From IMG/VR virus record IMGVR_UViG_2576861193_000002: DNA of 64,000 nt. One strand, given 5' to 3'. The stretch comes from a virus. Lineage: Duplodnaviria; Heunggongvirae; Uroviricota; Caudoviricetes. A program made the position numbers and the translations under genes. Under the pieces are notes generated by a model. That model searched no databases and was not told the origin of the DNA. It was given only the letters and a program-made list of their open reading frames with translations. Within the stretch, counting starts at the first letter, position 1. The number at the start of each line of letters is the position of its first letter. Below are positions 1-63,565 of this stretch, piece by piece.

Positions 1-69
1 AGCACCTCAAAAACACCATCATACACTAAATCAGTAAGTTGGCAGCATCACCATCGCGCCTGAGGCACA

Positions 70-1164: not shown

Positions 1165-1167
1165 CAG

Positions 1168-2308: not shown

Positions 2309-3071
2309 GCATGATCTCCACCATGCGCTGCGTCATCCGGACAAATCCATTTTCAATAGCCTGCTGATAATCAATGATCACCAGCGCCGACTCCTCGAAA
2401 AAACACTGAATTTCAGAGGGGGCGTGAGCGTAATAGTCCGCAATTCTGCTGAAATTAAACACCGTGTGACGTTCTGCCGCACACAGGAGGAATTTCTCAA
2501 TATCAGGCTCAAGGGACGCCGAACGTATCCGGCTGATCAGCTCCTGAGTTTTCGTATCGTCGTACAGTTCACTGATATCCGGTTTACCGCCCGACGGCTC
2601 ATAAACAGGCGTATCAATTTTCGTCGTATACGGCTCCTCCTCATTTCCTGTACCGGGCAAAACATCCGTCAACAGTTCATCAATTTCTGTCGGGATGAAG
2701 CCTGTCAGGGAGACATCAAAATCAGCATTGATTAGGTCCGACAGCTCCATCCGCAACAGATCTTCATCCCAGCCAGCATTCATCGGCAGGCGATTATCTG
2801 CCAGGCGGTACGCCTTTTTCTGCTCATCCGTCAGGCCAGACAGAACAATGACCGGAACAGAATCCATTTTGAGCATTTCAGCCGCCATAACACGACCGTG
2901 ACCCGCAATAATTTCGCCCTTTTCGTCAATCAGCACCGGATTAGTCCAGCCGAATTGCTTAATACTTTCTACCAGTTGTGCCACCTGCTCAGGGCTGTGC
3001 GTCCTGGCGTTGTGCGCATACGGTGACAATTCTTGTAATGGGCGATAGACTATCTTTAATTTCTCGCTCAT
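2280..3071 (-). CDS. ParB-like nuclease domain protein
   Basis: 263 aa; N-terminal ParB/Srx-like motif (…EIIAGHGRVMAA…); phage late region between trkG and terminase. Confidence 0.7.
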   Translation of the reverse strand: MSEKLKIVYRPLQELSPYAHNARTHSPEQVAQLVESIKQFGWTNPVLIDEKGEIIAGHGRVMAAEMLKMDSVPVIVLSGLTDEQKKAYRLADNRLPMNAGWDEDLLRMELSDLINADFDVSLTGFIPTEIDELLTDVLPGTGNEEEPYTTKIDTPVYEPSGGKPDISELYDDTKTQELISRIRSASLEPDIEKFLLCAAERHTVFNFSRIADYYAHAPSEIQCFFEESALVIIDYQQAIENGFVRMTQRMVEIMHGGEEEEYA

Positions 3072-3208
3072 ACAGCCTTGCTTTATGAATAAAACGCACC
3101 CCAGCAGCCAGTGCTACTGGGGACGGAGGGGTTGCTGGTAAAGTTAGGTATTGGATCAATGAGTGAGTCAACATAATATTAAACTCACAATTATAAATCA
3201 GCCATATA

Positions 3209-4666: not shown

Positions 4667-4803
4667 ATCTAAATATTCTTTCAATTATAACCACCTTGCT
4701 GCAATATTATGATTATACTGTATAAAATTTAACTCCTCTTAGATCTTACTTCACTGTTCCTTATGAAACAATCATCAAAATGAATCATATTGTAGTTAAG
4801 ATT

Positions 4804-5268
4804 TTACTTTAAACACTGCTCGGTTATGTATTGCTGAGCACCTTCAAGTTGGGCCTGCATCATTACCAGTCGTTCCCGGAGGGTGAAATAATCCCGTTCA
4901 GCGGTGTCTGCCAGTCGGGGGGAGGCTGCATTATCCACGCCGGAGGCGGTGGTGGCTTCACGCACTGACTGACAGACTGCTTTGATGTGCAACCGACGAC
5001 GACCAGCGGCAACATCATCACGCAGAACATCATTTTCAGCTTTCGCATCAGCTAACTCCTTCGTGTATTTTGCATCGAGCGCAGCAACATCACGCTGACG
5101 CATCTGCATGTCAGTAATTGCCGCGTTCGCCAGCTTCAGTTCTCTGGCATTTTTGTCGCGCTGTTCTTTGTAGGCGATGGCGTTATCACGGTAATGATTA
5201 ACACCCCATGACAGGCAGACGACGATGCAGATAACCAGAGCGGAGATAATCGCGGTTACTCTGTTCAT
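4804..5268 (-). CDS. Rz i-spanin (inner membrane spanin)
   Basis: Near-identical to lambda Rz by eye ([15 protein letters not shown]… [41 protein letters not shown]). Confidence 0.9.
4863..5048 (-). CDS. Rz1 o-spanin lipoprotein, embedded in Rz in another frame
   Basis: 61 aa, lipobox VVGC, proline-rich ([15 protein letters not shown]); classic embedded Rz1. Confidence 0.85.
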
Positions 5269-5762
5269 TGCTGACCCCACAAACAGATTTCACGCTCAAT
5301 CTCACGACGAGTCATGAGACCTTTCCATTGCTTACCGCCAGCATATGTCCAGCGACGTAGCTGATCACATGCGCCTTTGATATCGCCCTGGTTTATTTTG
5401 CGAAGAAGCGTCGATGTTCTGAAATTGCCAGCACCCACGTTGTAAACGAATGAGTAAAGAGCGCCGCGCGTTGTTTCCGGTATATCGACTTTGATGTACG
5501 GGTTAATTTGTCTGGCGACCGTGGCAAGGTCTTTATTCAGCAGGGCTTTGCATTCTGCTTTGGTATACGTTTTACCGAGCATGATGTCTTTTCCTGTATG
5601 CCCGTGACATACAGTCCATACACCAACAATATCTTTGTATGGTATGTAGCTGACACCTTCCAGACCATCGTTACCACTTGGGCCAGTGATTAACACTGAT
5701 GCTATAGCAATTGCTCCGCCACCAATAGCAGCAGCAACGACTTTTCGTAATGATGGAGGCAT
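5265..5762 (-). CDS. SAR endolysin (phage 21 R-like lysozyme)
   Basis: 165 aa; N-terminal SAR segment [16 protein letters not shown]; lysozyme-like core; directly downstream of holin. Confidence 0.9.
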
Positions 5763-5977
5763 TATTCACCTCTCGCAGCCTTGCGCTTATCTTCTTTAAT
5801 CTTGAAATAAAGGTTTGTCAGGTACGTCAGCAGGCCAAATACCAGACTACCCAGCACACCGATTGCAGCCCACTGTGACGGAGTTACTCTATCGAGCAAC
5901 TGTAAAAACCAGTAGCCAGCACTGCCTGCGGAGGTGCCGTAGGCAATGCCTGTTGAAATTTTGTCCATGGATTTCAT
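5762..5977 (-). CDS. pinholin (phage 21 S-like) with MKSM dual start
   Basis: [26 protein letters not shown]… matches S21; SD ggaggtga upstream; starts at 5977 and 5968. Confidence 0.85.
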
Positions 5978-6228
5978 AGCCTCACCTCCGCACGGAACGG
6001 ATGGCATAGTTATTATATGTAGGCTTTCAGACACATCAATCAGAGCCTTAATTGATATATATGCTGGAGACGATGCAATATAAAAAGCTCGCCGTAGCGA
6101 GCTAATAAAATGTATTTCTCTGATATTATGTTTATTTGTATTAGCTCAGACTTGACATCACAGGTTTCGTATATAGAACATCATCAAATCTGTCAGTTTG
6201 CTATGAATGAGATATAGTAATTGAAGAG

Positions 6229-6624
6229 CTAACCTCGCATGTCAAAGCCAGATTTCTGAAAATCTCTGTAGACTTCCGGATTGTTGAAGGCCGGAAATTT
6301 GGCTTTATGAGCTGCGGACTTTATCGCTTCGCAATAGGCTTTATCACCGTTACTGGTAGATATTTTTAACGCCGTGCCATCCTGAGAGAATTCCATATGC
6401 AACCTGCATTTTTTCCCTTTCCAGTTATGCGGCTCATCAAGTTTGGCATTAATTGCAGCTCTGATTCCCCGCGCTTGCGCCCCCCATTCATCCTGATCAT
6501 CCCAGCGTCCTGAACTGCAACTACCTGTAGCAGTAGTTTTGTGGCAATCTGAAGGGTGTAAAGGTGTGCATCCCGCAACAAAACCGACCCAAAAAGTCAA
6601 CATAACGATTTTCTTTAATCCCAC
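6229..6624 (-). CDS. prophage lipoprotein with divergent TolA domain III-like C-terminus
   Basis: 131 aa; signal peptide + lipobox (VAGC); C-terminal region alignable with the paralog at 6775-7203. Confidence 0.6.
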   Translation of the reverse strand: MGLKKIVMLTFWVGFVAGCTPLHPSDCHKTTATGSCSSGRWDDQDEWGAQARGIRAAINAKLDEPHNWKGKKCRLHMEFSQDGTALKISTSNGDKAYCEAIKSAAHKAKFPAFNNPEVYRDFQKSGFDMRG

Positions 6625-6774
6625 TTCTTGCTCCTCAATCCATTAAAATCTCAGCAATAGTAGTTGTTACGTCCGCCACTGGCTCAGAGCTGACTATCCG
6701 CTAAATTTAGCTCAGTGCCGTAGCTGTGTCAGAACAAACCTAAGCCGAAACCGTTTATTACAAAACAATAAATA

Positions 6775-7203
6775 TCAGGGTTTAAAATCCAGCACCCCAT
6801 TTTGAAATACTTTATATACTTCCGGCGAAGGGGGGGCAGGTATATCAGCATTCTTTATCGCATTCATCGCTTCACGACATAAATCGAGGTCTCCACTTTC
6901 TCTTTTAACCTCCAGTAGAAGGCCATTCGGGGCCATATGCATTCTCAGTGTACACTCTTTTCCTGAATACTTACTCGCATCCCCGAACTGTTTTTCGATG
7001 GCGCTCTTGATTTGATGGGCATACAGACGGATATCCTCACTAACATCAGAAGTACGTTCAGATGAACTCACATACTGTGTCTCTATTGCTTTATCGGAGT
7101 AATATGATGTACGGTCATGATAATTTGTCGATACAGCATCAGTGCACCCGATAATAATCCCACTAATAATCAACGTAAGAATTGATGCGCTACGAAAACC
7201 CAT
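6775..7203 (-). CDS. prophage lipoprotein carrying a TolA C-terminal domain (domain III)-like module
   Basis: 142 aa; lipobox IIGC; C-terminus …IKSAIEKQFGDASKYSGKECTLRMHMAPNGLLLEVKRESGDLDLCREAMNAIKNADIPAPPSPEVYKVFQNGVLDFKP closely resembles E. coli TolA C-terminus as recalled. Confidence 0.7.
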   Translation of the reverse strand: MGFRSASILTLIISGIIIGCTDAVSTNYHDRTSYYSDKAIETQYVSSSERTSDVSEDIRLYAHQIKSAIEKQFGDASKYSGKECTLRMHMAPNGLLLEVKRESGDLDLCREAMNAIKNADIPAPPSPEVYKVFQNGVLDFKP

Positions 7204-8140
7204 TTTTCCTCACATATGTCATATAGTAAAGGATTATATATACCGTTGTTTTGGACGCTCAAACAGCGAATCAGATCAAATAAAACGCACATTTGTTAAC
7301 ATTTACACAAAGTCTGCGTGGGATATTCTGAAAGAATATCCATAATGTGGAGAGAATCTATTGAAGTGCATGGTGCCGGGTGCCTCCCGGTGAACAAAAT
7401 GTTCGTGATACCTGTCGGCGACAGAAAAGGTTAATGGTATCACCCCACCGCACAGGGGGATTCACCATGCAGGAGTTTTCTTAGCAAACTCACTGCGCGC
7501 CCGGCAACTCCCAACCACATAAAATGCGGAGTTTGTGGTATTTATGCATATAACTCGCAGGAATTATCTTAAAAAACTGATGTCGATCCGGATTAAAAAG
7601 AAGCAGGTCATCATCAGATGACTGGAAAAAAGGAAAACAAAAAATACTCATCATACAGTTTTGATTGCAGGGATGAGCCTGCTATGCACAATATGCAGAA
7701 TATAAGCAAGATAAAAATATGCAGGCATATTATTTCGGATTTTGTTATTAACACAACCTTTTTAATAATCATTTGGCATACAATAAACCAGCCCAAAAAG
7801 AACCGCCTAAACAGGCGGTTGGTCAATACAAAGGATGCTTCGTCTTTATTATAGTAATCTGAGGCGTCGGGTGTCTTGTATCAGACAACATATTGTCCCG
7901 CTAAACAGCGAATTACAAACCACCCTGCAATGATCTCTCATCTCATTTTATATGAGTTGACGACATCAGGATAACGCATCATCAGCCCCTGCCAAGAAAT
8001 ATCAAAACTCCCGCCAGCAATGTGTTATCACAATAATGTAAAAAAAACACAGCACCGAAACTATAACTGGTCTCTGTTATAATTTGGAGCAGAAAGACCA
8101 GTTGCCCAACTAGCAGCATTCTCCCCTGCTTTCCTGACGT

Positions 8141-8167
8141 AAAAAAACCGCATTAAGCGGTTTTTTT
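8141..8167. terminator. bidirectional intrinsic terminator downstream of Q (tR'-like)
   Basis: A7-ccgc-attaa-gcgg-T7 perfect hairpin flanked by A and T runs. Confidence 0.6.
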
Positions 8168-8247
8168 ACGATGTCCATGTCTGCAATCCGCCTCGCGATA
8201 CAGCTTTGCGAAGCATAGCAAAATTGAAGCAGTTTATACGTAAGAAA

Positions 8248-8790
8248 TCAAGCCATTTTCTCAGCAAATGATTCACGCATGGGAATATATAGGGCATACT
8301 CAGCAACAGCTAACCAATTAGCAATCCGTTTTTCGCATGTGCTAAAACACCACTCTGGGTGTGCATCATTTAGCAATTCAGCCATTTTGCGCTTAGTCAT
8401 CCCCCGCCCTTCATAGCGTTGCCGGAGAATGCAAATCAATCCTGGATGCTCTGCCAGCACCTCACTTATGACTCGATCAATACATAACGCCTCTGCATCA
8501 GTACAATGCGCCAGCCAGCTCTTTTGCTTGCCGTTGATCATCTCTCGCAAAAACGCTTCCAGCTCAGCTTTCTCTATTCCCGCTTTTTTCATTCTGCGCA
8601 GGGCTTCATTAATGGCTGTTTTCGTCAGTTTTTTGGATGCCAACAACTGATTGAACATATTCCCTGACCTGCCACCGCCAATATACGACCAGCGCCCCCA
8701 CATACGTAGTTTTCCCTGAATCCAGACACTTTCCAGCGTGGTGAGGCGAAGGTGTTCTCCGCTTTTTCCTGTATTCGTTGGGTAAATCAT
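8248..8790 (-). CDS. late antiterminator Q-like protein
   Basis: 180 aa; position between nin-like genes and tR'/lysis cassette; Cys-containing Q-like C-terminus. Confidence 0.7.
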   Translation of the reverse strand: MIYPTNTGKSGEHLRLTTLESVWIQGKLRMWGRWSYIGGGRSGNMFNQLLASKKLTKTAINEALRRMKKAGIEKAELEAFLREMINGKQKSWLAHCTDAEALCIDRVISEVLAEHPGLICILRQRYEGRGMTKRKMAELLNDAHPEWCFSTCEKRIANWLAVAEYALYIPMRESFAEKMA

Positions 8791-9077
8791 AAATGACCTT
8801 TCTTTCTCCAGATTTCTTGTGTGCGAAAAACCCCTTCAGCATGCATCAGGCGCAATTCTTCTTTGGTGTAATCGCTGGTTTTTACCCGCCCGTCGATTAG
8901 ATCGTGGCATGAGCTACAGGCTATCGCCGCCTGCATATCGTGTGGTTTTGTCGCTGTTCCGCACGTCCCCGCCAGCCTGTAATGCGCCAGCACAGAGGTT
9001 TCGGGATTGTGATTGCAGTAGCCAGGGATTCTGATCTGGCACATCTGGCCTTTAGCCGCTTTACGTAAATTCACCAT
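8787..9077 (-). CDS. YbcO-like nin-region protein (DUF1364-like, Cys-rich)
   Basis: 96 aa with multiple CxxC/H motifs; translationally coupled to Q. Confidence 0.65.
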   Translation of the reverse strand: MVNLRKAAKGQMCQIRIPGYCNHNPETSVLAHYRLAGTCGTATKPHDMQAAIACSSCHDLIDGRVKTSDYTKEELRLMHAEGVFRTQEIWRKKGHL

Positions 9078-9676
9078 TACGCAAACTCCAGTAGTTGTGC
9101 GGCCACATTTTCAACTTCCTCCTGAGAGGAGAATTTACGGAACAGAATCCAGTTCCACAGCACATTCAGTACAGATTTATAAACCTGCTGAAACTCGACT
9201 TCGTCCACATTCGCAAAAGCGATGGATTTTGCCCGACGCCCACGGCTACCGTCCGGATAAATATGCTCGGTGTAAAATCCGGCCTGAATGGTTACCCACT
9301 CGCGGAAAGCCTCAAACGACTTTAGCAACGCCGTATCCCGGGTTCTACGAGTCGCAACGGTGTTAAGGTATTGCTCTGCGGCATCACTCAGGGCTGGCGT
9401 GTGTTCCCGACCAACTGATTCGCACAGGTAATCAACGAAACCAGACAGCAGTTCTCGTTCGCGAGGCGTGATCGCCCCACCGACCGGAGTCCAGTAATCG
9501 AATCCCAGTTGCAGGAGTTTGAAAAAACGCTTGTGGAATGCGTAGTTACGCACACGCTTAAAGTCTGCGTGTATCCACTCACCTATTTTGATTTGATGCA
9601 GAAAATCGCAACTCTCCGGCGTCGCCGGGAGAAGTAAACCAGAAGAAGTTTGTTTGACCAGTTGTATATGCGCCAT
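9077..9676 (-). CDS. YbcN-like nin-region protein (DUF1367-like)
   Basis: 199 aa; synteny with ybcN-ybcO-Q of lambdoid prophages. Confidence 0.65.
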   Translation of the reverse strand: MAHIQLVKQTSSGLLLPATPESCDFLHQIKIGEWIHADFKRVRNYAFHKRFFKLLQLGFDYWTPVGGAITPRERELLSGFVDYLCESVGREHTPALSDAAEQYLNTVATRRTRDTALLKSFEAFREWVTIQAGFYTEHIYPDGSRGRRAKSIAFANVDEVEFQQVYKSVLNVLWNWILFRKFSSQEEVENVAAQLLEFA

Positions 9677-9949
9677 TTCTCAATCTCTCGATGGCGCAGT
9701 GCAGCAGATGCCAGTTGTTCAGGCTGACGTATAAAGTATAAATAAACTGGTTCCAGTGTAAAGCCCCCACCTTAATGGAATAAAAACCAAACAACAGATT
9801 GCTGGGATACAAACAACGCTTATTATTAAAAGCGGTTAAACAAATTAAATTTTAATGTTATGCAAATTTGTCAGATCACCATAATATCTCATTTGAAAAC
9901 CGCTGAAATAACAATCCTATCAGGATTAATCATATTAAGGTGAGTAAAT

Positions 9950-10036
9950 ATGGAAAACAACAAATCTGCACATTACGCTCCTTTTTTATCTGTAATACTT
10001 TTTGTTTTTTGCTGTGTATGGGCATTATTTTTATAA
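9950..10036 (+). CDS. candidate 28-aa hydrophobic small protein
   Basis: ATG preceded by SD aaggtgag; MENNKSAHYAPFLSVILFVFCCVWALFL; AT-rich intergenic region next to hok. Confidence 0.3.
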   Translation: MENNKSAHYAPFLSVILFVFCCVWALFL

Positions 10037-10113
10037 AAATATTCACAGATAAAATAAACTCGCCGAATCAGGTTAAGTGTGGGTGCGTTGAGGATGCCTG
10101 ACACATCAGAGGC

Positions 10114-10135
10114 GGCGAGGGATTTCTCCCTCGCC
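10114..10135 (-). other. stable stem-loop at 3' end of hok transcript
   Basis: ggcgaggga-tttc-tccctcgcc perfect 9-bp stem just downstream of hok stop. Confidence 0.4.
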
Positions 10136-10144
10136 TAGTCACTC

Positions 10145-10300
10145 TTACTCCTCAGGTTCGTAAGCTGTGAAGACAGCGACCTCCGTCTGACCGGTTCGGA
10201 TTCGCACCTCGCAGAGGTCTTTCCTCGTTACCAGTGCCGTCACTATGACGGTTAAACAGATGACAATCAGTGCGACTAACATCGCCTTTTGCTGCTTCAT
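10145..10300 (-). CDS. hok: Hok/Gef family type I toxin (HokD/RelF-like)
   Basis: MKQQKAMLVALIVICLTVIVTALVTRKDLCEVRIRTGQTEVAVFTAYEPEE; SD aaggag upstream; in-frame upstream extension in the six-frame ORF. Confidence 0.85.
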   Translation of the reverse strand: MKQQKAMLVALIVICLTVIVTALVTRKDLCEVRIRTGQTEVAVFTAYEPEE

Positions 10301-10780
10301 AGCCTGCTTCTCCTTGCCTTCCGGCGCGTAAGAGGCTAACCTACATGTGCAAAGCATGAAATTGGCCTCAGATTAATGTTAAGCGTCTTGCCGGACGCGT
10401 AATGTTATCTGGGGCTTTTCTCTATCTGCCTTTGGTGTTCATGCCTGAGGCAGATAGCCTCAAGCACCCGCAGCAATTCTACTTAACTCCCGTCACCTCG
10501 CCAATATAAAATCAATCAGAAAGGCGATCCATAAGAACAACAGCAAGACAATAAATTGCCATTACAGCCGCAATAGCTAGCGCACATTTGAGAACCAGCA
10601 CGACAACCTCCTGTATTGGACGTACACCAGTTCTGATAAATATGAGGCTGTCTCATCATTGATTCAATATAACTATTGGGTATAGTTTCTGTGATTTTGT
10701 TCTGTAGAAATGGAACACAACAACCAGTCACCACCAGCACTTCTTTAAATACGCCAAGTCCGACGCAAGCTAACCTTCTA

Positions 10781-10804
10781 GTCCGCTTTGAGCGAGGAGC
10801 GGAC
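10781..10804. repeat. hairpin repeat R0 (GTCCGCT-10 nt-AGCGGAC)
   Basis: Same 7-bp stem as copies at 13847 and 17520. Confidence 0.55.
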
Positions 10805-11020
10805 CAAACCCGGCCAACTGACTCTTAAAGGGGCCGCAGGAATTTTTCGTCTGAACTTTCGAAGCTCCTCTCCCTGAAGACAGAAAACTTCTGTGTGCTG
10901 TGGGAATATTGAATCTTTGCCTTAGATATAAATAATTTTATCCCGCCTGAAGTTTACATTATTTTATTTATCTGTTTTTCTAAATCAGACTGCACTCCTT
11001 ACTTAAATCAGGAGCCAGTC

Positions 11021-12220
11021 ATGCCATTTGTTATTTATGTGTTTACTATCAGTGCCTTTGCGCTCGGACTCGCGGAATTTGTCCCCATTGGGCTGACAGA
11101 CGTTATGGCTCAGGGGTTGTGTGTGGGTGTGGAGCAGACCGGGGCAGCGGTTACAACCTATGCACTGGGGGCAACGTTCGCGGCACCCGTACTGTCTGCG
11201 CTGACAGCAAGCTGGAGCCGGAAAAATGTAATGCTTACAACTGCCGTTGTGTTTACTGCCGGTAGTCTGGCGGCCGCGTTTGCAGCCACATTACCTCAGC
11301 TCCTGTTAGCGCGGTTCATTGCTGGTCTGGGACACGGCCTGTTTCTGGCTGCGGCATCCAGTACCGCAGCTCGTCTTGCTGGACCGGGTAAAGCAGGCAG
11401 AGCGGTGGCTGTGGTATTTGGTGGCTTTACTCTGGCGATGGCAATCGGCGTACCGCTGAGTACATGGTTGGGGGGGGTGGTCTCATGGCGTCCAGTTCTC
11501 GGCGCTATTGCCGCTTTTGGCGCGTTCGGATTCCTTGGACTGTTGTTCGGTATGAAAGATCCCGTACGCAGCGTGCCCGGTGAACATAGTGACTCAGCAA
11601 TGCAGAATATCGGCATGCTGTTTAACCGTAAGTTGCTGGCCGGCGCGCTGGTTACGGTGCTGGCGTATGCAGGCTCGTTTACGGATTACACCTTTATCGC
11701 ACCTATTCTGACGCAGGTGACAGGGGTTACCGGAGCAACGGTGAGTCTGTTTATGCTGGTTTACGGTATTACAGCTGCGGTAGGTAATATTCTTGGTGGG
11801 AAACTTACCGACAGCATGGGGGTTAATCGTGCCAATATACTCATCATTAGCGGCATTGTTGTTGTCGTGCTTGGTATGTGGCTGCTGTCATCCTCACCGG
11901 TGAGCATGGGCATTCTGGTTGCGCTGCTGGGTATGGTGACATTTGCCGCAGTGCCGGCACTGCAGGCCCGTCTGATTGGTGTCGCTGAGCAACATGCTCC
12001 TCATGCGCATGGTGTTGCTGCCGGCCTGAATATTGCGGGCTTCAACTCAGGTATAGCGCTGGGATCAGTACTGGGCAGCATTACTATAAGCCACGCCGGT
12101 ATCGTGTATACCGGTATCAGCGGTGCGATTGTTTCTCTGCTCGGCCTGCTGTTGCTGCTTGCACAAATCCGTCGCAGCCACAGTCGTAAATTTCAACAGG
12201 TTAAAATCGTAGGCCAGTAA
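11021..12220 (+). CDS. MFS transporter (cargo gene)
   Basis: 399 aa, ~12 TM, Gly/Ala-rich MFS signature; GC-rich versus surrounding phage DNA. Confidence 0.85.
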   Translation: MPFVIYVFTISAFALGLAEFVPIGLTDVMAQGLCVGVEQTGAAVTTYALGATFAAPVLSALTASWSRKNVMLTTAVVFTAGSLAAAFAATLPQLLLARFIAGLGHGLFLAAASSTAARLAGPGKAGRAVAVVFGGFTLAMAIGVPLSTWLGGVVSWRPVLGAIAAFGAFGFLGLLFGMKDPVRSVPGEHSDSAMQNIGMLFNRKLLAGALVTVLAYAGSFTDYTFIAPILTQVTGVTGATVSLFMLVYGITAAVGNILGGKLTDSMGVNRANILIISGIVVVVLGMWLLSSSPVSMGILVALLGMVTFAAVPALQARLIGVAEQHAPHAHGVAAGLNIAGFNSGIALGSVLGSITISHAGIVYTGISGAIVSLLGLLLLLAQIRRSHSRKFQQVKIVGQ

Positions 12221-39000: not shown

Positions 39001-41243
39001 ATCTGGTTTTCACCTGCGAAGTAAAATTCGTATGCTGTATCAGTGGTCAGGGTTGTTTTGCTAATCGGATACACTGTTGCCTGGAAAACACCAGGAACCC
39101 AATTAACGCCGACCGGGGCCGCTGGTGCACCAATAACCAGGTCCACAATACTTTCCGCACCCTTCATGCCAGTGTCATTACGCCCGCGAATACCAAGCGT
39201 GTAGCTGCCAGTATCAAGGCCATAAAACTCATAGCGGTAATTCGTTGTTTCATAAGTTGCCACCACGCGGCCTTCGGCGTTATATACGCGTATTTCAAAG
39301 GTCAGGCGATGCGTTGTCGTCTGTGTTTCCCATGTAGCGCGACATTGAACAGTTTCAGAACCAACATTTAACACCTTCAGGTTTTCAATGTTCGGCACGC
39401 GGAAGTGATTAAGCGTGTCGTTGTTTACCTCAAAGATTGCGCCTTCATCGACTACAGCCTGTTTATGTGGGTCATGCTGTGCTGCCTCGATGGTGTACAC
39501 GCTGTTGTTTTCAGTTTCTGCTACGCTGATGATTCGGCACAGGACGGGTTTTGCTGCGTCAGTTGATACAGCAAAAACAGTTCCGTTACGAATCCACGCG
39601 GGGGCGGCTGCAAGGGTGATATTGTTTCCGTTAACTCCGGTGATCTGGTGTTTTTTAAACTTGCCATCACTATCAAGTAAACTAATGGTATCGCCTGCGG
39701 CGATGTATTCCGAATCAACCTTATCTACCGTTATCACCTTGCCATTATTCGCCACGATACGACCGCCAAAACGAGCGCCTGCGCGGTTATTGTCGAGTAT
39801 CTCGATAATATCCCCAGGGGTGAAGTGAATTGCGTCGCGGGCCATTTTAAACGTGAATTTTGATGGTTCGCGTTTTGCTGTTTCTATCAGCCACTTGCCA
39901 GCGCGGTATGCCTGCCCGCGTGAAGTGCAACCGAAAGCCTCTAGCGTGGTTTCGTTATAACCATCGCGGGCGATCAATTCATCATCTGCCACGTATTCTT
40001 TTGATTGCTCCCAACCGTTTTCCGGGTCAGTCCATGACACGATAACTGCGTTGTAAGATTCTGCACGGGCAATACTTGAACGAGTAAACGCGCCATCAAC
40101 AACGTTAGCATTCGTGATGGTAGCAATTGGATCTTGCGGTGCATCAATCATCACCGTAAGGCGCTGCCCATCCCATAACGCGATACCACGGAACATGCCT
40201 GCGATATTGTCCAGTAAGTCGCGGGCGCTCATTTGCTCAGTTATGTAAGCATTAAGCGTCATGCGAGGTTCAAAGCCGCCGTAACCGTCGTTTACCAACT
40301 GGTCGCAGTATTGAGAAAGCGTATATAATGCGCCGTCGTCAACATCAATGTAACCAGCATGACGTGCAAGCCCGAAACGTTCATTTTTAACCAGATACCG
40401 GAATAGCCACGCAGGGTTATTGGTGTACGCTTTTTTAAATCCACCTAGCCATAAACCTGAATACGTGCGCGTTTCAGGGTTATAGTTGTCAGGCACATCA
40501 ACAATCAGTCCGCGCAGATGATAGGTGCGGGTAGGTGTATCAGTATACTGGTCATGGTCAATTACAGCACCAGCTACAGCGGTATGAGGGTAAGACAGGT
40601 TATCGTCGATTATTTCGCTGTAGCTACTCCACCGCGTATCATTACGAAGAAGATCGCTTTTGCTGTCTGCTGTTACGCGACGAACGCGAATATCAAACGG
40701 CTTTTCATCCGGCGCTTTGATAATGTGAGCTTCCAGATATTCACCGCTTTGTTTACCGGGACCAATGTGTATACCTTTAACCGGCGACCACGTAGAAGAT
40801 GATGACGGTTTAACATCAACCACCAACATAACGGATGTATTATATTGATTGCCCTCATCATCTGACTGAACAAGAGCATCAACGCCAAGATTTAACCTTA
40901 CGCGGGTAACGTTTGGATCTGAAACAGTCCTTATTATTGGCGTGTCGTGAGTTACCTTTGCGTTGACAATAACGGTTGATTCGATGGCATTAAAACCATT
41001 AATCGGCGATTGGTCAGCCGTGCCGTTGCGCCAGGCTATACTAATCCCAGGAATTGATGTGTTTCCGTTTGCGTCAGTGATAGGCGTGTCATTAAGCATT
41101 ACGTTGTTTAATGGCGCATTCTGGTTAACTACTCCAAAAATTGGTCCTTCACTTAGAATATCTAAAACCCGATAAAATTGTTTATGAAACAAATTATCAT
41201 TAAGCAAAGTTGGTGTTTTTGCTTTACCGCCGCCACTAGACAT
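36060..41243 (-). CDS. J-like host specificity / central tail fibre protein with long coiled-coil repeat insert
   Basis: 1727 aa; follows L-K-I; middle third is tandem ~35-aa repeats (…DETSARTQAISDVNASISTLDKKTDASVKRLDQAIA…). Confidence 0.85.
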   Translation of the reverse strand: MSSGGGKAKTPTLLNDNLFHKQFYRVLDILSEGPIFGVVNQNAPLNNVMLNDTPITDANGNTSIPGISIAWRNGTADQSPINGFNAIESTVIVNAKVTHDTPIIRTVSDPNVTRVRLNLGVDALVQSDDEGNQYNTSVMLVVDVKPSSSSTWSPVKGIHIGPGKQSGEYLEAHIIKAPDEKPFDIRVRRVTADSKSDLLRNDTRWSSYSEIIDDNLSYPHTAVAGAVIDHDQYTDTPTRTYHLRGLIVDVPDNYNPETRTYSGLWLGGFKKAYTNNPAWLFRYLVKNERFGLARHAGYIDVDDGALYTLSQYCDQLVNDGYGGFEPRMTLNAYITEQMSARDLLDNIAGMFRGIALWDGQRLTVMIDAPQDPIATITNANVVDGAFTRSSIARAESYNAVIVSWTDPENGWEQSKEYVADDELIARDGYNETTLEAFGCTSRGQAYRAGKWLIETAKREPSKFTFKMARDAIHFTPGDIIEILDNNRAGARFGGRIVANNGKVITVDKVDSEYIAAGDTISLLDSDGKFKKHQITGVNGNNITLAAAPAWIRNGTVFAVSTDAAKPVLCRIISVAETENNSVYTIEAAQHDPHKQAVVDEGAIFEVNNDTLNHFRVPNIENLKVLNVGSETVQCRATWETQTTTHRLTFEIRVYNAEGRVVATYETTNYRYEFYGLDTGSYTLGIRGRNDTGMKGAESIVDLVIGAPAAPVGVNWVPGVFQATVYPISKTTLTTDTAYEFYFAGENQITDPSKVTTSAQFTGRGYQWTFGGMNTGHTYYVYIRTRNAFGVSDFVEASGKPTENFDEISDYVTKDVINSEQFKGMISDIKDLGDRADLIESATNDLKTATDNLKTATDNLTNITDDLRVDTDNLTNITDDLRIDTDGLITETGAIKADTDTLKKETEDLYKKVEENADDIGQHEARIDSLEVSSEKVGSELAQAKASLQNASLALINNSLAQTNTRVTLTAQYKKGRTETKAEIDRIDNVIAEEKKATAESLETITAEMNTMDSNLKGQISNVQRAVADEASARAEAINGVNASISNLDKKTDASVNRLDQAIADETSARTQAISDVNASISTLDKKTDASVKRLDQAIADETSARTEAISGVNTSISTLDGKVTSNINRIDKAIADETKARTDAISSVNASISTLENNTESEVSRLDQAVADETSARTQAISDVNASISNLESKTDASVSRLDKAISDETQARSAAITEVKADLTTLENSTNASVKRLDQAIADESSARAQAISGISAELGTVENNVDKNSDEINQTKASLQNASIALINNSIAQTNTRVTLTAQYKKGRKETNAQIDRIDNVIAEEKKATAEAISSVNASITDLDRKTEASVNRLDRAIADETSARSEAISGVNASVSALDKKTDSRISRLDKAIADETSARTEAISGVNASISTLENNTESEVSRLDQAIADESSARAQAISGVNASISTLDSKVTSNVTRIDKAIADETKARTDAISSLNSSLTSTINSKVSEVSTALSTHEASSAEKFGQISASFDSVNSNITEWSQAMATADEALSSKIDQLTVTVNGNTTAIQTTSKALTDFKGNVDATYSIKLATDNNGMKYATGMSLGLTGSGTNVQSQCIFLVDRFVLMTAANGTYTSPFYTTNDAMYVKEAFIKDGSIGTAKIAQQIQSTVFVQDSKGWMINKDGWAQFNEVTVRGNVIVKGNQNFDVRNSDGRVIINNNGITVNLPSGGKIIIGVW

Positions 41244-41802
41244 ATAGACCCCCTGTTTCGTGTAATTTCGTGTATCCTGCGCCAGCTTTATTTAGCTCTT
41301 CAATCATGAATGACCGCCACGCGACGGCGGCATTAATAGCCATTTCAAGTCCACCGCACGCTATAACGCTAAATGATTTACTAACTCTTTTGTCGTTATC
41401 AGCGGTGATACGTGCTCTAATAGATCTCCCTTCTGCGTGCCAACATATCCCAAATGGCAATCCGCTCTCCCTTGTCGCGCGACCTATGGTCATATTTCTG
41501 GCGTTACCTTTTTTATCTGTTACGCGTATGTTATTGAATTTATTATTAAGCCCATTACCATCAATGTGATCGATGATCTCACTGCGTTTTAATTTTCTGC
41601 CACTGCATAATTCGTAAACAATCCGGTGAGCATAATAGCGACGGCCCTTCCATGTGATTTTCCAGTACTTATTGCCGCTTTTTGCCGCTACTATTTTTCC
41701 TGCCGCATCGCCAGTCCTCGCCGTTCTGCTGTTAGCGGTGACTTTCCACCTTAAACATGAAGGAGAATCTTCATCATAAACAAACAATTCAGACCAGTTC
41801 AC
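41236..41802 (-). CDS. HNH homing endonuclease (HNH_3-type)
   Basis: 188 aa; motif IDHIDGNGLNNKFNNIR; inserted between tail genes I and J. Confidence 0.75.
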   Translation of the reverse strand: MNWSELFVYDEDSPSCLRWKVTANSRTARTGDAAGKIVAAKSGNKYWKITWKGRRYYAHRIVYELCSGRKLKRSEIIDHIDGNGLNNKFNNIRVTDKKGNARNMTIGRATRESGLPFGICWHAEGRSIRARITADNDKRVSKSFSVIACGGLEMAINAAVAWRSFMIEELNKAGAGYTKLHETGGLYV

Positions 41803-60614: not shown

Positions 60615-61157
60615 TCAGCCTCGTTTAAAGCTCATAACACGCGGTACAAGCGCCTCTTTTGCTTTCTGCTTACGTTTGCCTTTCTTCGCTGGTTTTTCTT
60701 CTTCCTTCGGCTGCTCTGCCTGCTCTAATGCCTGATCGACGACTTCAGCCGCCTGCATTGCCGCCACCCGTGCTTCATTTGATTCTGCCAGGATGGGGAA
60801 GAAAGCATCAAAGATACGGCCTACCATGTAAGCGTATGTCTCATTTGCAGGGTGGCTCGGATCTGTAGTGGCAACGACGCCTACATCACTTAATACGTGA
60901 AACGTCGTGTGGGCCGCCTCATGTACCAGCGTTCCTAACTCATTGTCGAATACTGCGATCACGTAGAAGTTACCGCCTTTCTCGCCAGTGCAAGTAAGCG
61001 TCAATCCTCCTGCCAGTTCGAAATCAGGTTCGATTGGTACTCCTGCCTTTTCGCAAAATTCATAAAACATCTCGCGGGTCGGGCAAAAGAAAACTGTTGT
61101 ATGCTCAAAGAGCGGGACTTTGAATTGAGGCAACTTAATGCCTTTAGCCTTAGCCAT
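60615..61157 (-). CDS. hypothetical protein with HExxH motif (putative zinc metallopeptidase-like)
   Basis: 180 aa; …GTLVHEAAHTTFHVL…; Lys-rich C-terminal tail. Confidence 0.5.
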   Translation of the reverse strand: MAKAKGIKLPQFKVPLFEHTTVFFCPTREMFYEFCEKAGVPIEPDFELAGGLTLTCTGEKGGNFYVIAVFDNELGTLVHEAAHTTFHVLSDVGVVATTDPSHPANETYAYMVGRIFDAFFPILAESNEARVAAMQAAEVVDQALEQAEQPKEEEKPAKKGKRKQKAKEALVPRVMSFKRG

Positions 61158-61436
61158 CAGAATATTCCTCTATCCTGAAAAATATAACCCCCGCAAAACT
61201 CGACACCGCAGGGAGTGAAAACAGCTATAAAACACTGAAAACGGCGCTGTGTGAGTACCGTTTACAGAATTTTATAAAACTGTAGAATGGCGCTTTCTTC
61301 TACCCAGGTAGCGCCTGACCTGTTAATGGGACTGTTGATCCGGTATTACGTGTTTTTGACTTTTCCGCCGTCGCTCGCGGGAAGGATTGGCCCGGTTATG
61401 GCTGGCTGGCAGAAACGGCGACACGTCCACGCGCTG

Positions 61437-61907
61437 TTATTCTTTGCGTAAGCACTGCGTTTTGATGTAGTCCTGTAGCCCTACGATCTGAGCGTCTTTC
61501 GTTTTTAGTTGTTCTCTGAGGGATAGATAAGCCGATTCAGCGTCGGGAGTGAGTCTACAGGCGGCTCTATCAATGCTGCTGGCGGTTCCGGAGGAGTCTG
61601 ACACTCGCACGGGTATTGCGTTGACGCGCAGCCTGATAGTGCCGTTATCAATGCCAGTGCGCAGATCGGCAATGTCAGATCTGATAGCTTTAATCTCATC
61701 GTGATACCTCTTATCAAGTTTTGACAGTTCGGCGTTTCGCTCCTTCATCTGCTGAATAGTGTTACTTGCTGTTTTCAGTGCGCCTTGCGTGGTCGTTAAT
61801 TCTTCCTGTAACCTTGTCGCCTCACTCTGGTAATGGCATGTCACGGCTGTAAGACTGGCAATGATGCAAACAACAGCGGCGATAATTAACGCCTTCACCT
61901 TGTCCAT
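61437..61907 (-). CDS. Rz-like i-spanin
   Basis: N-terminal TM + coiled coil periplasmic domain; embedded Rz1. Confidence 0.75.
   Translation of the reverse strand: MDKVKALIIAAVVCIIASLTAVTCHYQSEATRLQEELTTTQGALKTASNTIQQMKERNAELSKLDKRYHDEIKAIRSDIADLRTGIDNGTIRLRVNAIPVRVSDSSGTASSIDRAACRLTPDAESAYLSLREQLKTKDAQIVGLQDYIKTQCLRKE
61505..61699 (-). CDS. Rz1-like o-spanin lipoprotein (embedded)
   Basis: Lipobox LSGC; proline-rich (PPEPPAALIEPP). Confidence 0.7.
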   Translation of the reverse strand: MRLKLSDLTLPICALALITALSGCASTQYPCECQTPPEPPAALIEPPVDSLPTLNRLIYPSENN

Positions 61908-62416
61908 GTTCCCCCCTCGCAACCCATCGAAGGTGCATATTCACCATAGAAAAAGTTTTCCGCCAAAATGCGAGCCGCGATCGCTTCGTCCAGTGAATAA
62001 AACAAGCCAATACATATGCGTTTACCGTCATTGTCGGTAATCCTTACCCGCCATTTAGGCTTGCTCCGCTCTGTTTTGTGGTAGGTAACACCCCTAAATC
62101 CAGATGATGTATGAGGGGTAAGGTGTTTTTTATTCATGCTGTTATGCGTATCGTCTACTTCTCGCAAGTTTATAATCCTGTTATCGTGTTTTATCCCATT
62201 GATATGATCGATATCCTTTTCAGGCCATACTCCATAATGGAAAAACCACGCAAGGCGATGCGCTTTATATCTTCCTATGTATATATATCCGCTTTTATGC
62301 TTAAACCCTGCCACACTACCAGCCTTAATCCTCCCGTGAGGACTAATCTTATAGGTAAAAACACCTGTTTCTGGATCATAGTGCAGCTTTCGTTTTAGCT
62401 CATCATCACTTTTCAT
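61895..62416 (-). CDS. HNH homing endonuclease (HNH_3-type), paralog of 41236-41802
   Basis: 173 aa; motif IDHINGIKHDNRIINLR; inserted between endolysin and Rz. Confidence 0.75.
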   Translation of the reverse strand: MKSDDELKRKLHYDPETGVFTYKISPHGRIKAGSVAGFKHKSGYIYIGRYKAHRLAWFFHYGVWPEKDIDHINGIKHDNRIINLREVDDTHNSMNKKHLTPHTSSGFRGVTYHKTERSKPKWRVRITDNDGKRICIGLFYSLDEAIAARILAENFFYGEYAPSMGCEGGTWTR

Positions 62417-62897
62417 TAGTTACGCCCCATTCACAAACAGCGCGTTCAATATCGCGTCGATTTTTTAATCCCTGTATATATCGCCCATTATCATATACCC
62501 AGCGATCCAACTCCTTACACGCCCCCATAAAGTCGCCTTTATTTATTTTTTTTAACAAGGTTGATTTTTTGAAAGCGTCAACCCCGATATTGTATGAAAA
62601 GCTAATTAGCGCGGCGCGTTGGTAGTCATTCATGTCAACTTTTACATAACGATCGACCGCCTTTTTGTAAACGGCTAAGTGTTTTTGTAAAAGTCTCTCG
62701 CATTCATCAGGTGTGTATCTCTTACCAGGGACAACATCAGGGCCGGTTATGCCATTGCATACAGTTAGCACGCCTCCGGTATCGTAATAAGGCTCGTAAG
62801 CCGTACCCTCAACCCATACAAGCAAAACAGATGCAATGGCTAACGTTCCACCAGCCGCCGCCTTAGTTAGTCGGTTTTTCAGCGATTGGCTAATCAT
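62406..62897 (-). CDS. endolysin (lysozyme-like, N-terminal signal-anchor)
   Basis: 163 aa from MISQSLKN; hydrophobic N-terminus then lysozyme-like core resembling the prophage-1 endolysin. Confidence 0.8.
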   Translation of the reverse strand: MISQSLKNRLTKAAAGGTLAIASVLLVWVEGTAYEPYYDTGGVLTVCNGITGPDVVPGKRYTPDECERLLQKHLAVYKKAVDRYVKVDMNDYQRAALISFSYNIGVDAFKKSTLLKKINKGDFMGACKELDRWVYDNGRYIQGLKNRRDIERAVCEWGVTNEK

Positions 62898-62898
62898 G

Positions 62899-63099
62899 TT
62901 ACTTATTCCCCATTCGCGCGTCGTGTTCCTCTTGCGCTCGCTTGTTCTCCTGTGATTTGAAATAATAGTTAACGGCAAATGTGCCAATGGTTGATAAGAT
63001 ACCCACAAAGACGGCAACGTCATTGATGGTTATCGCGCCGAAAAAAGCAGTTACGGCCCCAGTCACATACGCACACGCCGCCCGTATTCTGTCGAACAT
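62899..63099 (-). CDS. holin
   Basis: 66 aa, two TM segments, charged C-terminus; SD ggagg; stop overlaps endolysin start. Confidence 0.7.
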   Translation of the reverse strand: MFDRIRAACAYVTGAVTAFFGAITINDVAVFVGILSTIGTFAVNYYFKSQENKRAQEEHDARMGNK

Positions 63100-63113
63100 A
63101 GATTTACCTCCAA

Positions 63114-63141
63114 CAAAGCAAAAACCCGGCGCGGGGCCGGG
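63114..63141 (-). terminator. intrinsic terminator just upstream of holin (tR'-like)
   Basis: acccggc-gcgg-gccgggt hairpin followed by U-rich run on minus strand. Confidence 0.5.
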
Positions 63142-63565
63142 TAGTTACAGTTTCGCATTGTTAGATAATATTTTAATCTGTTTGTTTACGCCCTACAAAT
63201 ACGGCTTTACGGCTTTCTATATATCAGGCCATTATCAAGCAATCTTTGCATATGCCACCGATCCATGTCGCTTGATTCCCAATACGGAACATCATCAGGT
63301 CTTATCATCACCGCTTCACCTCTAACCAAATAAGCGATGTTGAATACCTTGTGTAAATAGATACCGTCTTCAATCTCGTTCATAGGTCGCTAACCTTCAC
63401 CAGCCATCTTCCGCCACATAGGGATAGATTCATCAAAATATGTATTTTCCATTCCATCATTGTATGCCAGTTCATAAAAACGCCCACGATTTACATCTTC
63501 AATCACGCGGCTGTACGTGCCATCGGTACGACTAACACCGCGCCATAGCCTGAACACAACCATAA

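What the first reader, a model, noticed from the sequence alone, without database searches (positions are those of the whole stretch)
61895..62416. Second HNH endonuclease splitting the lysis cassette between endolysin and Rz
Holin-endolysin-Rz/Rz1 cassettes are normally contiguous. Here a 173-aa HNH endonuclease (IDHINGIKHDN…) with overlapping stop/start sits between endolysin and Rz. Two related homing endonucleases in one prophage, each at a junction of conserved genes, suggests active intron-less homing.
Basis: partly seen in the sequence, partly recalled or inferred. Interest (0 to 1): 0.5.

Follow-up and report, generated by a model that had tools for sequence, protein, structure and literature searches.

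The report
Homing endonuclease gene inside phage lysis cassette
A selfish nuclease gene of a well-known type sits between the cell-wall-degrading enzyme gene and the Rz gene of an E. coli prophage, and travels together with its own version of that enzyme gene; this is a tidy but expected example of how such genes spread among related viruses.

Summary
ORF 61895..62416 (-) encodes a 173-aa HNH_3 nuclease with an I-HmuI-like fold and an AP2-type DNA-binding domain. It lies between a SAR-type lysozyme gene (62406..62897) and Rz/Rz1, and overlaps both. The host is an mEp021-like (mEpimmI) prophage of E. coli.

All matching prophages in 35 complete E. coli genomes and seven isolated phages lack the gene: there the lysozyme gene overlaps Rz directly. 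About 950 nt are swapped as one block: a divergent lysozyme allele ("lysB", about 55% aa identity to the usual "lysA") plus the HNH gene. One prophage pair is 99-100% identical in the flanks and differs only by this block.

The last nine HNH codons are the old lysozyme 3' end, which keeps the Rz ribosome site and start overlap. The ORF is intact in 16 alleles, with dN/dS of 0.08-0.24.

HNH relatives of at least 54% identity in Yersinia, Morganella, Providencia and Pantoea always follow a lysozyme gene. Relatives of 49% or less never do.

The best reading is a free-standing homing endonuclease that co-converts the endolysin. Cleavage was not shown. It is a new member of a known kind, of modest interest.

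The parts
61895..62416 (-). Free-standing HNH endonuclease gene, 173 aa: N-terminal beta domain, HNH core (D70-H71...N83...N95), C-terminal AP2-type DNA-binding domain
61895..61921 (-). Last nine codons of the HNH ORF (C-E-G-G-T-W-T-R-stop). These are the remnant of the 3' end of the ancestral lysozyme gene, and carry the Rz Shine-Dalgarno sequence and the start/stop overlap.
   Evidence: Empty alleles end ...AVCEWGETWTR*. HNH alleles end ...GCE(W)GETWTR*. HNH relatives in other genera end at ...GCEK* or similar. The tail has pLDDT below 50.
62406..62897 (-). Lysozyme allele 'lysB' (SAR-type endolysin, E-8aa-D-5aa-T triad), always linked to the HNH gene
   Evidence: PF00959 at E 4e-41. 53-57% aa identity to the lysA allele of HNH-less relatives. 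No nucleotide match in 5,426 complete E. coli genomes. Followed by the HNH gene in all 17 loci examined.
61922..62873 (-). The swapped block (about 950 nt): the lysB body from codon 9 onward plus the HNH gene up to its native ...GCE end
   Evidence: Alignments of occupied against empty alleles. Homology stops after the first 24 nt of the lysozyme ORF and resumes at TTGCGA, 27 nt before the shared stop codon.
62899..63099 (-). Holin (class II, HP1/P21-like); left homology arm
   Evidence: PF16080 at E 3e-15. 86-100% nt identity among both occupied and empty alleles that carry this holin type.
61437..61907 (-). Rz i-spanin; right homology arm. Its start overlaps the HNH stop.
   Evidence: PF03245 at E 5e-26. 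93.6% nt identity to the empty allele L001, starting exactly at the HNH end.
61505..61699 (-). Rz1 o-spanin lipoprotein embedded in Rz (lipobox LSGC)
   Evidence: PF06085 at E 9e-8; translation.
63124..63142 (-). Terminator-like hairpin upstream of the holin gene. It marks the start of the late operon that carries holin, lysozyme, HNH and Rz; no promoter-like site lies in front of the HNH gene.
   Evidence: The same position is annotated TERM_5 in phage mEp021.

Best explanation
This is a free-standing (intron-less) homing endonuclease gene of the I-HmuI-like HNH_3 family. It has colonised the 3' end of the endolysin gene in the lysis cassette of an mEp021-like (mEpimmI) temperate coliphage.

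Shown:
- The gene has no promoter of its own. It sits in the late holin-lysozyme-HNH-Rz operon, and its ATG overlaps the lysozyme stop by 11 nt, which suggests translational coupling.
- Its protein has an intact HNH core, an I-HmuI-like fold and an AP2-type DNA-binding domain, and is under purifying selection.
- It is missing at exactly this site from most relatives.
- It is always linked to a divergent lysozyme allele (lysB).
- Its ORF ends in the old lysozyme tail, so the Rz ribosome-binding site and the start/stop overlap are preserved.

Inferred:
- When an HNH-carrying and an HNH-less phage of this group meet in one cell, the enzyme nicks or cuts the HNH-less allele in or next to the lysozyme 3' end.
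- The break is resected and repaired from the HNH-carrying genome. Crossovers fall in the holin gene or the first 24 nt of lysozyme on the left, and in Rz on the right.
- As a result, lysA is replaced by lysB plus HNH (co-conversion).
- The carrier is protected because the insertion splits the site and lysB differs from lysA throughout.
For: Family and fold:
- Pfam HNH_3 at 52 bits.
- D70, H71, N79, N83 and N95 are invariant in 43 relatives and kept in all 16 E. coli alleles.

Selection:
- All 16 ORFs are intact, with dN/dS 0.08-0.24, similar to the lysozyme gene.

Presence/absence:
- The site is empty in the matching prophages of 35 complete E. coli genomes and in seven isolated phages.
- It is occupied in 17 draft or metagenome loci, always between the lysozyme gene and Rz.

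Before/after pair:
- L030 (occupied) and L037 (empty) are about 99-100% identical for 1.2 kb upstream and about 1 kb downstream.
- They differ only by lysA versus lysB plus HNH, with sharp boundaries.

Insertion rather than deletion:
- The HNH ORF tail equals the lysA tail.
- The same arrangement is seen independently in a Pantoea pair, L123 against phage AH07.

Site specificity at clade level:
- Every HNH of at least 54% identity follows a PF00959 lysozyme gene on the same strand and precedes unrelated spanin genes. This holds in E. coli, Yersinia, Morganella, Providencia and Pantoea, and in phages with four different terminase types.
- None of 88 relatives with 49% identity or less does so.
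- The HNH-linked lysozymes are not monophyletic (0 of 100 bootstraps).

Agreement with known free-standing endonuclease genes:
- Promoter-less cassette, ORF overlap with the upstream gene, and co-conversion of the neighbouring gene are all described for T4 seg and mob genes (PMC2988022).
Against: - No cleavage activity, target site or biased inheritance has been measured.
- HNH-less alleles also show mosaic joints between the lysozyme gene and Rz (L003 against L036: lysA 98.2%, Rz 77.4%). Shuffled flanks around an identical cassette therefore do not by themselves prove nuclease-driven spread.
- The ten P0121 loci were chosen by identical lysB protein, which inflates cassette identity.
- The occupied allele is rare: none of the related prophages in 35 complete genomes carries it. 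That is not what a strongly driving element at equilibrium would show.
- No diagnostic 'immunity' substitutions were found in the conserved lysozyme 3' coding block.
- HNH and lysozyme divergences are roughly parallel, so part of the pattern could be vertical co-inheritance of a two-gene module.
Confidence: 0.7

Rival explanations
1. Passive passenger. The HNH gene was inserted once long ago, no longer drives anything, and simply rides with the lysB allele. The patchy distribution then comes from the ordinary mosaic recombination that shuffles all modules of these phages.
For: - HNH-less alleles also recombine at the lysozyme/Rz border.
- The occupied allele is at low frequency.
- HNH and lysozyme divergences are roughly parallel.
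Against: - Purifying selection is as strong as on the lysozyme gene: dN/dS 0.08-0.24, and all 16 ORFs are intact.
- Catalytic residues are invariant.
- A monophyletic HNH clade keeps the same position after lysozyme genes that are not each other's closest relatives, in five genera and in front of unrelated spanins.
- A useless nuclease gene would be expected to decay.
Confidence: 0.17
2. Domesticated nuclease with a function for the phage. Examples would be helping the terminase cut DNA for packaging, degrading host or competitor DNA late in infection, or acting as a defence or exclusion factor of the lysogen.
For: - The gene is expressed from the late operon, about 1.8 kb upstream of the terminase small-subunit gene.
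- HNH proteins next to terminase genes are known packaging helpers (own knowledge).
- Purifying selection is present.
Against: - Seven plaque-forming mEpimmI phages lack the gene (PMC11893012).
- It is separated from the terminase gene by Rz/Rz1 and a 180-aa ORF.
- It belongs to HNH_3 with an AP2 domain, not to the short PF01844-type terminase-associated HNH. One of those sits next to the terminase gene in the Morganella relative L018, in addition to this gene.
- The PADLOC defence library gives only a weak 'homing endonuclease' match.
- Competitor exclusion would in practice be the same mechanism as homing (marker exclusion).
Confidence: 0.08
3. Endonuclease encoded in an intron or intein. 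The insert would be spliced out of the lysozyme mRNA or protein, restoring the ...CEWGETWTR end.
For: - The insertion lies inside the last codons of the lysozyme ORF, and the old tail follows in frame with the HNH ORF.
- Group I introns carrying HNH genes are known in lysin genes of Gram-positive phages (own knowledge).
Against: - No Rfam family, including the group I and II intron models, matches 61200..63300 even at E up to 5.
- The 513-nt insert is filled almost entirely by the ORF, leaving no room for a ribozyme core.
- The lysozyme gene has its own stop codon and the HNH gene its own start.
- The protein has no intein splicing blocks and is too small for an intein.
Confidence: 0.02

Closest known systems
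Free-standing HNH homing endonucleases of T-even phages (mobA-E, especially MobE between nrdA and nrdB), and intron-less homing as defined for SegF and SegG
   Same: - A promoter-less gene placed between two conserved genes of an operon.
- The start codon overlaps the upstream ORF (segF overlaps by 11 bp, as here).
- Presence/absence polymorphism among close relatives.
- The neighbouring gene allele travels with the endonuclease gene (co-conversion, marker exclusion) (PMC2988022; PMC2790892).
   Different: - The host is a temperate, non-lambdoid coliphage (a prophage), not a virulent T4-like phage.
- The target region is the lysis cassette, not DNA-metabolism genes.
- The 3' end of the ORF is fused to the remnant of the upstream gene's tail, so the downstream gene keeps its translational coupling.
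- Activity is untested.
I-HmuI (SPO1 DNA polymerase intron, PDB 1u3e)
   Different: - I-HmuI is intron-encoded and uses helical/HTH C-terminal DNA-binding modules; this protein has an AP2-type domain.
- No sequence-level match was found (phmmer against PDB finds nothing relevant).
- I-HmuI is a nicking enzyme. Whether this protein nicks or cuts both strands is unknown.
HNH-AP2 endonucleases of phages and cyanobacteria (Pfam HNH_3 + AP2; PHROG 99)
   Same: - Same domain order.
- 2,992 phage records contain relatives of this protein.
- The C-terminal domain superposes on plant AP2/ERF domains at 2.1-2.4 A.
   Different: This subclade (at least 54% identity) is confined to one genomic position, directly after SAR-type lysozyme genes of temperate Enterobacterales phages. 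More distant family members sit elsewhere.
I-HmuI-like HNH endonucleases of lactococcal Skunavirus phages
   Same: - Several copies per genome at variable sites.
- Enzymes cluster phylogenetically by insertion site.
- Marker-exclusion activity was shown for some of them (PMC12724721).
   Different: Different host group and insertion sites. None of those described lies in a lysis cassette: the paper contains neither 'lysin' nor 'holin'.

Membership tests
HNH_3 / I-HmuI-like HNH endonuclease (protein family) | Significant match to the family profile | tested here: met
   PF13392 at 52 bits against a cut-off of 24.8, E 5e-14. PHROG 99 at E 3e-61.
HNH_3 / I-HmuI-like HNH endonuclease (protein family) | Catalytic beta-beta-alpha-metal core residues (Asp-His general base, structural and metal-binding Asn) present | tested here: met
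   D70, H71, N79, N83 and N95 are invariant in 43 relatives and present in all 16 E. coli alleles. Assigning each residue to a role rests on analogy with I-HmuI (own knowledge).
HNH_3 / I-HmuI-like HNH endonuclease (protein family) | Fold resembles a solved family member | tested here: met
HNH_3 / I-HmuI-like HNH endonuclease (protein family) | Metal-dependent DNA nicking or cleavage | not testable with these tools
   Needs a biochemical assay.
AP2/ERF-type DNA-binding domain | Three-stranded sheet packed on a helix, superposable on AP2 domains | tested here: met
Free-standing homing endonuclease gene (intron-less homing) | The gene is present or absent at one precise site among otherwise closely related genomes | tested here: met
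   Empty in 35 complete E. coli genomes and seven phages; occupied in 17 loci. L030 and L037 have 99-100% identical flanks.
Free-standing homing endonuclease gene (intron-less homing) | Not embedded in a self-splicing intron or intein; own start and stop codons | tested here: met
   No Rfam match. Own ATG, and the lysozyme gene has its own stop codon.
Free-standing homing endonuclease gene (intron-less homing) | The enzyme cleaves the allele that lacks the gene, and the carrier allele is resistant | not testable with these tools
   No target could be deduced, and no diagnostic substitutions were seen in the conserved lysozyme 3' block.
Free-standing homing endonuclease gene (intron-less homing) | Unidirectional gene conversion with co-conversion of flanking markers | tested here: inconclusive
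   lysB is always linked to the HNH gene, and the swapped block has sharp ends. However, direction and nuclease dependence cannot be read from sequences, and HNH-less alleles also recombine here.
Group I intron-encoded endonuclease | Ribozyme core flanking or overlapping the ORF | tested here: not met
   No intron family matched at E up to 5 in 61200..63300. The insert is 513 nt and nearly all ORF.
Terminase-associated HNH (packaging helper) | Short PF01844-type HNH gene directly adjacent to the terminase genes, and required by the phage | tested here: not met
   The gene is PF13392 type. Rz, Rz1 and a 180-aa ORF lie between it and the terminase small-subunit gene. Isolated phages of the group lack it.
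Anti-phage defence system component | Match to a known defence protein model with partner genes nearby | tested here: not met
   PADLOC gives only PDLC03687 'homing endonuclease', E 1e-4.

The most novel reading that the evidence does not exclude
This HNH clade may be a specialised 'lysis-cassette homing element' of temperate Enterobacterales phages. It would recognise the conserved 3' end of SAR-lysozyme genes (the G-L-x-N/T-R-R-x-x-E-x-x-x-C coding block) and insert a few codons after the conserved Cys codon. It would borrow the old lysozyme tail so that spanin translation stays coupled. By co-converting the whole endolysin gene, it would act as a driver of endolysin allele replacement between phages. 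In some lineages its expression would be held down by a structured leader that sequesters its ribosome-binding site.
Probability: 0.45. Interest if true: 0.45.

Novelty: new member of a known kind. Interest (0 to 1): 0.33.

Why it matters
Free-standing homing endonucleases are mostly studied in virulent T4-like phages. This case offers a clean natural system in a temperate coliphage group that is common in the human gut.

- Occupied and empty alleles exist in near-isogenic prophages.
- The block that would be co-converted is a complete, functionally exchangeable endolysin gene.
- Related isolated phages (mEp021 and others) are available as HNH-less recipients.

If the enzyme is active, part of the allelic diversity of phage endolysins and the sharp mosaic joints in lysis cassettes would be explained by selfish nuclease drive rather than by selection on lysis.

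It would also provide a new HNH-AP2 enzyme with a defined natural target.

For annotation, it warns that the 'endolysin' next to such a gene can be a foreign allele, and that the last codons of the HNH ORF are not native to it.

Tried and rejected
- Group I intron or intein reading: rejected. There is no Rfam hit, no room for a ribozyme, and separate stop and start codons.
- 'Target-site duplication' reading of the repeat GTTTGYGARTGGGG on both sides of the insert: downgraded. The G-C-E codons at the right end are native to the HNH clade (relatives end ...APSxGCEK*). The repeat is therefore a 6-14 nt microhomology between the HNH 3' end and the lysozyme 3' end, not a duplication made on insertion.
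- Sequence search of the PDB: nothing relevant. Only fold comparison found I-HmuI.
- blastn of lysB plus HNH against 5,426 complete E. coli genomes: no match at all. The occupied allele had to be found through the protein collections.
- Looking for lysB without the HNH gene: none in 17 loci. The P0122-P0126 clusters were not looked up.
- Looking for 'immunity' substitutions that separate HNH-linked from HNH-less lysozyme 3' ends: none consistent.
- Using 'identical cassette in divergent flanks' as proof of drive: rejected as proof. HNH-less alleles show the same flank mosaicism, and the loci were ascertained by identical lysB protein.
- Literature search for this arrangement: the mEpimmI genome paper does not mention HNH or homing. 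A search for HNH, homing endonuclease, endolysin and spanin together returned general phage genome papers only. One search failed on a term that was too short.

Full report
**1. What is there**

The minus strand of 61,400-63,100 carries a compact late-gene block:

| Gene | Coordinates | Evidence |
|---|---|---|
| holin | 62899..63099 | PF16080 |
| lysozyme | 62406..62897 | PF00959, E 4e-41 |
| 173-aa ORF | 61895..62416 | see below |
| Rz | 61437..61907 | PF03245 |
| Rz1 (embedded in Rz) | 61505..61699 | PF06085 |

- The lysozyme has an N-terminal Gly/Ala-rich signal-anchor and an E-8-D-5-T triad, which is the SAR-endolysin type.
- The 173-aa ORF matches Pfam HNH_3 at 52 bits (cut-off 24.8) and PHROG 99 'HNH endonuclease' at E 3e-61.
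- Its ATG lies 11 nt inside the lysozyme ORF, and the Rz ATG lies 13 nt inside its own 3' end.
- No promoter-like site precedes it. The only convincing hairpin-plus-T-run lies upstream of the holin gene, where phage mEp021 has an annotated terminator.

**2. Where the window comes from**

- The first 12 kb are E. coli chromosome (the trkG/Rac region, 99.9% identity to many strains).
- Positions 40-64 kb are 71-84% covered, at 86-91% identity, by the temperate phages mEp013, mEp515, mEp021, mEp044, mEp010, mEp554 and MagusPhagus. These belong to the non-lambdoid 'mEpimmI' group (PMC11893012).
- An exact-protein look-up found the gene on contig AYKC01000020 of assembly GCA_000511525.1. That contig is 100% identical to the window over 8,106 nt.

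**3. The protein**

- An AlphaFold model built from 43 relatives has mean pLDDT 85.8. Only residues 166-173 fall below 50.
- Foldseek places residues about 106-160 on AP2 domains at 2.1-2.4 A.
- D70, H71, N79, N83 and N95 are invariant across the 43 sequences.
- A sequence search of the PDB finds nothing relevant.
- Relatives occur in 2,992 phage records. The closest isolated phage is Morganella phage IME1369_02, at 56.5% identity.

**4. Empty and occupied sites**

- A 1,901-nt query spanning the cassette hit 35 of 5,426 complete E. coli genomes and seven phages. All hits came as two pieces spanning 1,376-1,390 nt, which is 513 nt shorter than the query. Four genomes span about 1,990 nt because of an unrelated 200-aa ORF downstream of Rz. 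No hit covered the HNH gene.
- In ten of these loci, inspected directly, the lysozyme gene overlaps Rz by 13 nt.
- Proteins 72-94% identical to the HNH are encoded in draft and read-archive assemblies of E. coli. In every case they lie between the lysozyme gene and Rz of an mEpimmI-type prophage.

**5. The variable unit is lysozyme plus HNH**

- In the window-versus-empty alignment, homology (about 93%) runs through the holin gene and the first 24 nt of the lysozyme ORF. It then disappears and resumes at TTGCGA, 27 nt before the stop codon that overlaps Rz.
- The lysozyme next to the HNH ('lysB') is only 53-57% identical in protein to the lysozyme of empty alleles ('lysA').
- lysB plus HNH has no blastn match in the complete-genome collection.
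- lysB forms a small discrete group: six protein clusters at 95-97% identity and one at 75%, after which the next relatives are at 58% or less.
- In ten further contexts of one lysB protein, the HNH gene followed every time.
- Linkage is therefore complete in 17 occupied loci and 10 inspected empty loci.
- The clearest comparison is L030 (occupied) against L037 (empty). They are about 99-100% identical for 1.2 kb upstream and about 1 kb downstream, and differ only by lysA versus lysB plus HNH.

**6. A chimeric ORF end**

- Empty lysozymes end ...AVCEWGETWTR*.
- lysB ends ...AVCEWGVTNEK*.
- The HNH ORF ends ...APSxGCE(W)GETWTR*.
- HNH relatives from other genera end at ...APSRGCEK* or similar. 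This means G-C-E is native to the HNH and the remainder is the old lysozyme tail.
- The tail carries the GAGGGGG Shine-Dalgarno sequence and the start/stop overlap of Rz, and it is the only disordered part of the model.
- This pattern shows insertion into a pre-existing lysozyme-Rz junction, rather than deletion in the empty alleles.
- The same arrangement recurs in an independent Pantoea pair. Phage AH07 has an endolysin (...SLCLAESVDDLKG*) that overlaps Rz. In L123 the lysozyme ends ...SLCLGDFEK*, and the HNH ORF ends ...GKSSNDL* on DNA homologous to the AH07 tail, including the spanin ATG.
- A variant E. coli lineage (L012: HNH 72%, lysozyme 74-75% identical) has its own HNH stop codon immediately before the Rz ATG.

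**7. Is the gene maintained?**

- All 16 E. coli alleles have intact ORFs and the same core motif.
- Pairwise dN/dS is 0.08-0.24 for the HNH gene, 0.06-0.13 for lysB and 0.19-0.45 for Rz.
- The alleles are old: dS reaches up to 0.9, and is saturated against L012.
- One allele (L011) has a lysB that is 99.6% identical to the window's, but an HNH that is only 85.7% identical. Recombination therefore also occurs inside the block.

**8. Position is a property of the clade**

- HNH proteins 54-62% identical to this one were followed to their contigs. They come from Yersinia enterocolitica, Morganella morganii, Morganella phage IME1369_02 and two read-archive phages.
- All lie directly after a PF00959 lysozyme gene and before spanin genes of unrelated families (Rz, DUF2570-type or small ORFs).
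- The host phages have Terminase_2, Terminase_4, GP3_package or Sf6-type terminases.
- A pattern scan of IMG/VR and of one genome per species returned 94 loci. All 6 with at least 56% identity have a lysozyme gene immediately upstream on the same strand. These six are Providencia (two), Morganella, Pantoea (a genome locus and its IMG/VR viral-contig near-twin) and one E. coli type.
- None of the 88 loci with 49% identity or less has this arrangement.
- The HNH-linked lysozymes do not form a clade (0 of 100 bootstraps). For example, the Pantoea one is closest to the HNH-less AH07 lysozyme.
- A monophyletic nuclease lineage found at one conserved position, across lysozyme lineages that are not each other's nearest relatives, is what site-specific invasion predicts. 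Repeated loss cannot be excluded.

**9. Limits**

- Flank shuffling is not specific to occupied alleles. The empty alleles L003 and L036 share 98.2% of lysA but only 77.4% of Rz.
- The ten P0121 loci were selected by identical lysB protein.
- The occupied allele was absent from all 35 related prophages in complete genomes.
- No substitution pattern in the conserved lysozyme 3' coding block separates occupied from empty alleles. The target therefore remains unknown.
- Nothing here shows catalysis.

**10. Rivals**

- An intron or intein is excluded. There is no Rfam match at E up to 5, there is no space for a ribozyme, and the stop and start codons are separate.
- A packaging HNH is unlikely. 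This is a different HNH type, it is not adjacent to the terminase gene, and it is absent from plaque-forming relatives. The Morganella relative carries a separate PF01844 HNH next to its terminase gene.
- The defence libraries give only a weak 'homing endonuclease' hit.
- The serious rival is a decayed-drive passenger. Strong purifying selection and the clade-wide positional conservation argue against it.

**11. Comparison with known systems**

The arrangement matches what is described for the T4 seg and mob genes (PMC2988022):
- promoter-less cassettes inside operons;
- start codons overlapping the upstream ORF (11 bp for segF);
- cleavage in a neighbouring gene;
- co-conversion of that gene.

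It also matches the site-specific clustering of I-HmuI-like enzymes in Skunavirus phages (PMC12724721).

What differs:
- the temperate host phage;
- the lysis-cassette location;
- the complete endolysin as the co-travelling marker;
- the borrowed 3' tail.

I therefore file it as a new member of a known kind.

**12. Verdict**

- Confidence that this is a functional free-standing homing endonuclease gene is about 0.7.
- Interest is modest.

Noticed in passing
window 41236..41802 (-): The other HNH_3 gene (188 aa, 28% identical to the lys|Rz one) lies between tail assembly gene I and host-specificity gene J. It is present in phage mEp021 (mEp021_78). It is absent from at least 20 of 33 complete E. 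coli genomes with a related prophage: the matched span there is about 1,141 nt against 1,701 nt. It is therefore also a presence/absence insert.
   Followed up: partly
L004 684-1160 (same contig, about 3.3 kb beyond the window end; would be about 67,257-67,733): A third HNH_3+AP2 gene (158 aa, 37% identical) lies between ninG and rusA of the same prophage. In mEp021 ninG and rusA overlap directly, so this is a third polymorphic endonuclease site.
   Followed up: partly
L026 4761-5246 and L028 4740-5246: Some related prophages carry yet another HNH_3+AP2 gene (161-168 aa, 52% identical to the ninG|rusA one). It lies between the ORF downstream of Rz and the terminase small-subunit gene.
   Followed up: no
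L016 2854-3003, L020 2903-3051, L041 and L123 2835-2983: In the Yersinia and Pantoea lineages, a spacer of about 150 nt between the lysozyme and HNH genes holds two elements. The first is a GC hairpin, followed by a T-run in Pantoea. The second is a long-range stem with 6 covarying pairs among 4 sequences, whose 3' side covers the AAGGAA ribosome-binding site of the HNH gene. This may be a translational brake like those of T4 endonuclease genes. The E. coli clade has lost the spacer.
   Followed up: partly
L002 1638-2240 (-), L003 1637-2239 (-): In four complete E. coli genomes, a 200-aa ORF with no Pfam match is inserted directly downstream of Rz, overlapping its end. This is another variable gene at the edge of the lysis cassette.
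   Followed up: partly
L011 4001-4519 compared with window 61895..62416: L011 has a lysB that is 99.6% identical to the window's, but an HNH that is only 85.7% identical. The first 60 or so residues are window-like and the rest resembles the L025 type, which indicates a recombination joint inside the HNH gene.
   Followed up: partly
window 60615..61157 (-): A 180-aa ORF lies between Rz and the terminase small-subunit gene. It matches PHROG 1365 (unknown function) and has no Pfam or PADLOC match. Its length and presence vary among relatives (171, 180 or 194 aa, or replaced).
   Followed up: no
window 1..12000: The start of the window is E. coli chromosome around trkG (the Rac prophage region). 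Matching genomes are often interrupted by different IS elements at this place: matches come in 2-5 pieces spanning 13-20 kb for a 12-kb query.
   Followed up: no
window 61905..61907: The Rz start codon is ATG in this window but GTG in most empty and several occupied alleles. The upstream purine run also differs by a 3-nt deletion: the W codon of the old CEWG is missing, except in L010.
   Followed up: no
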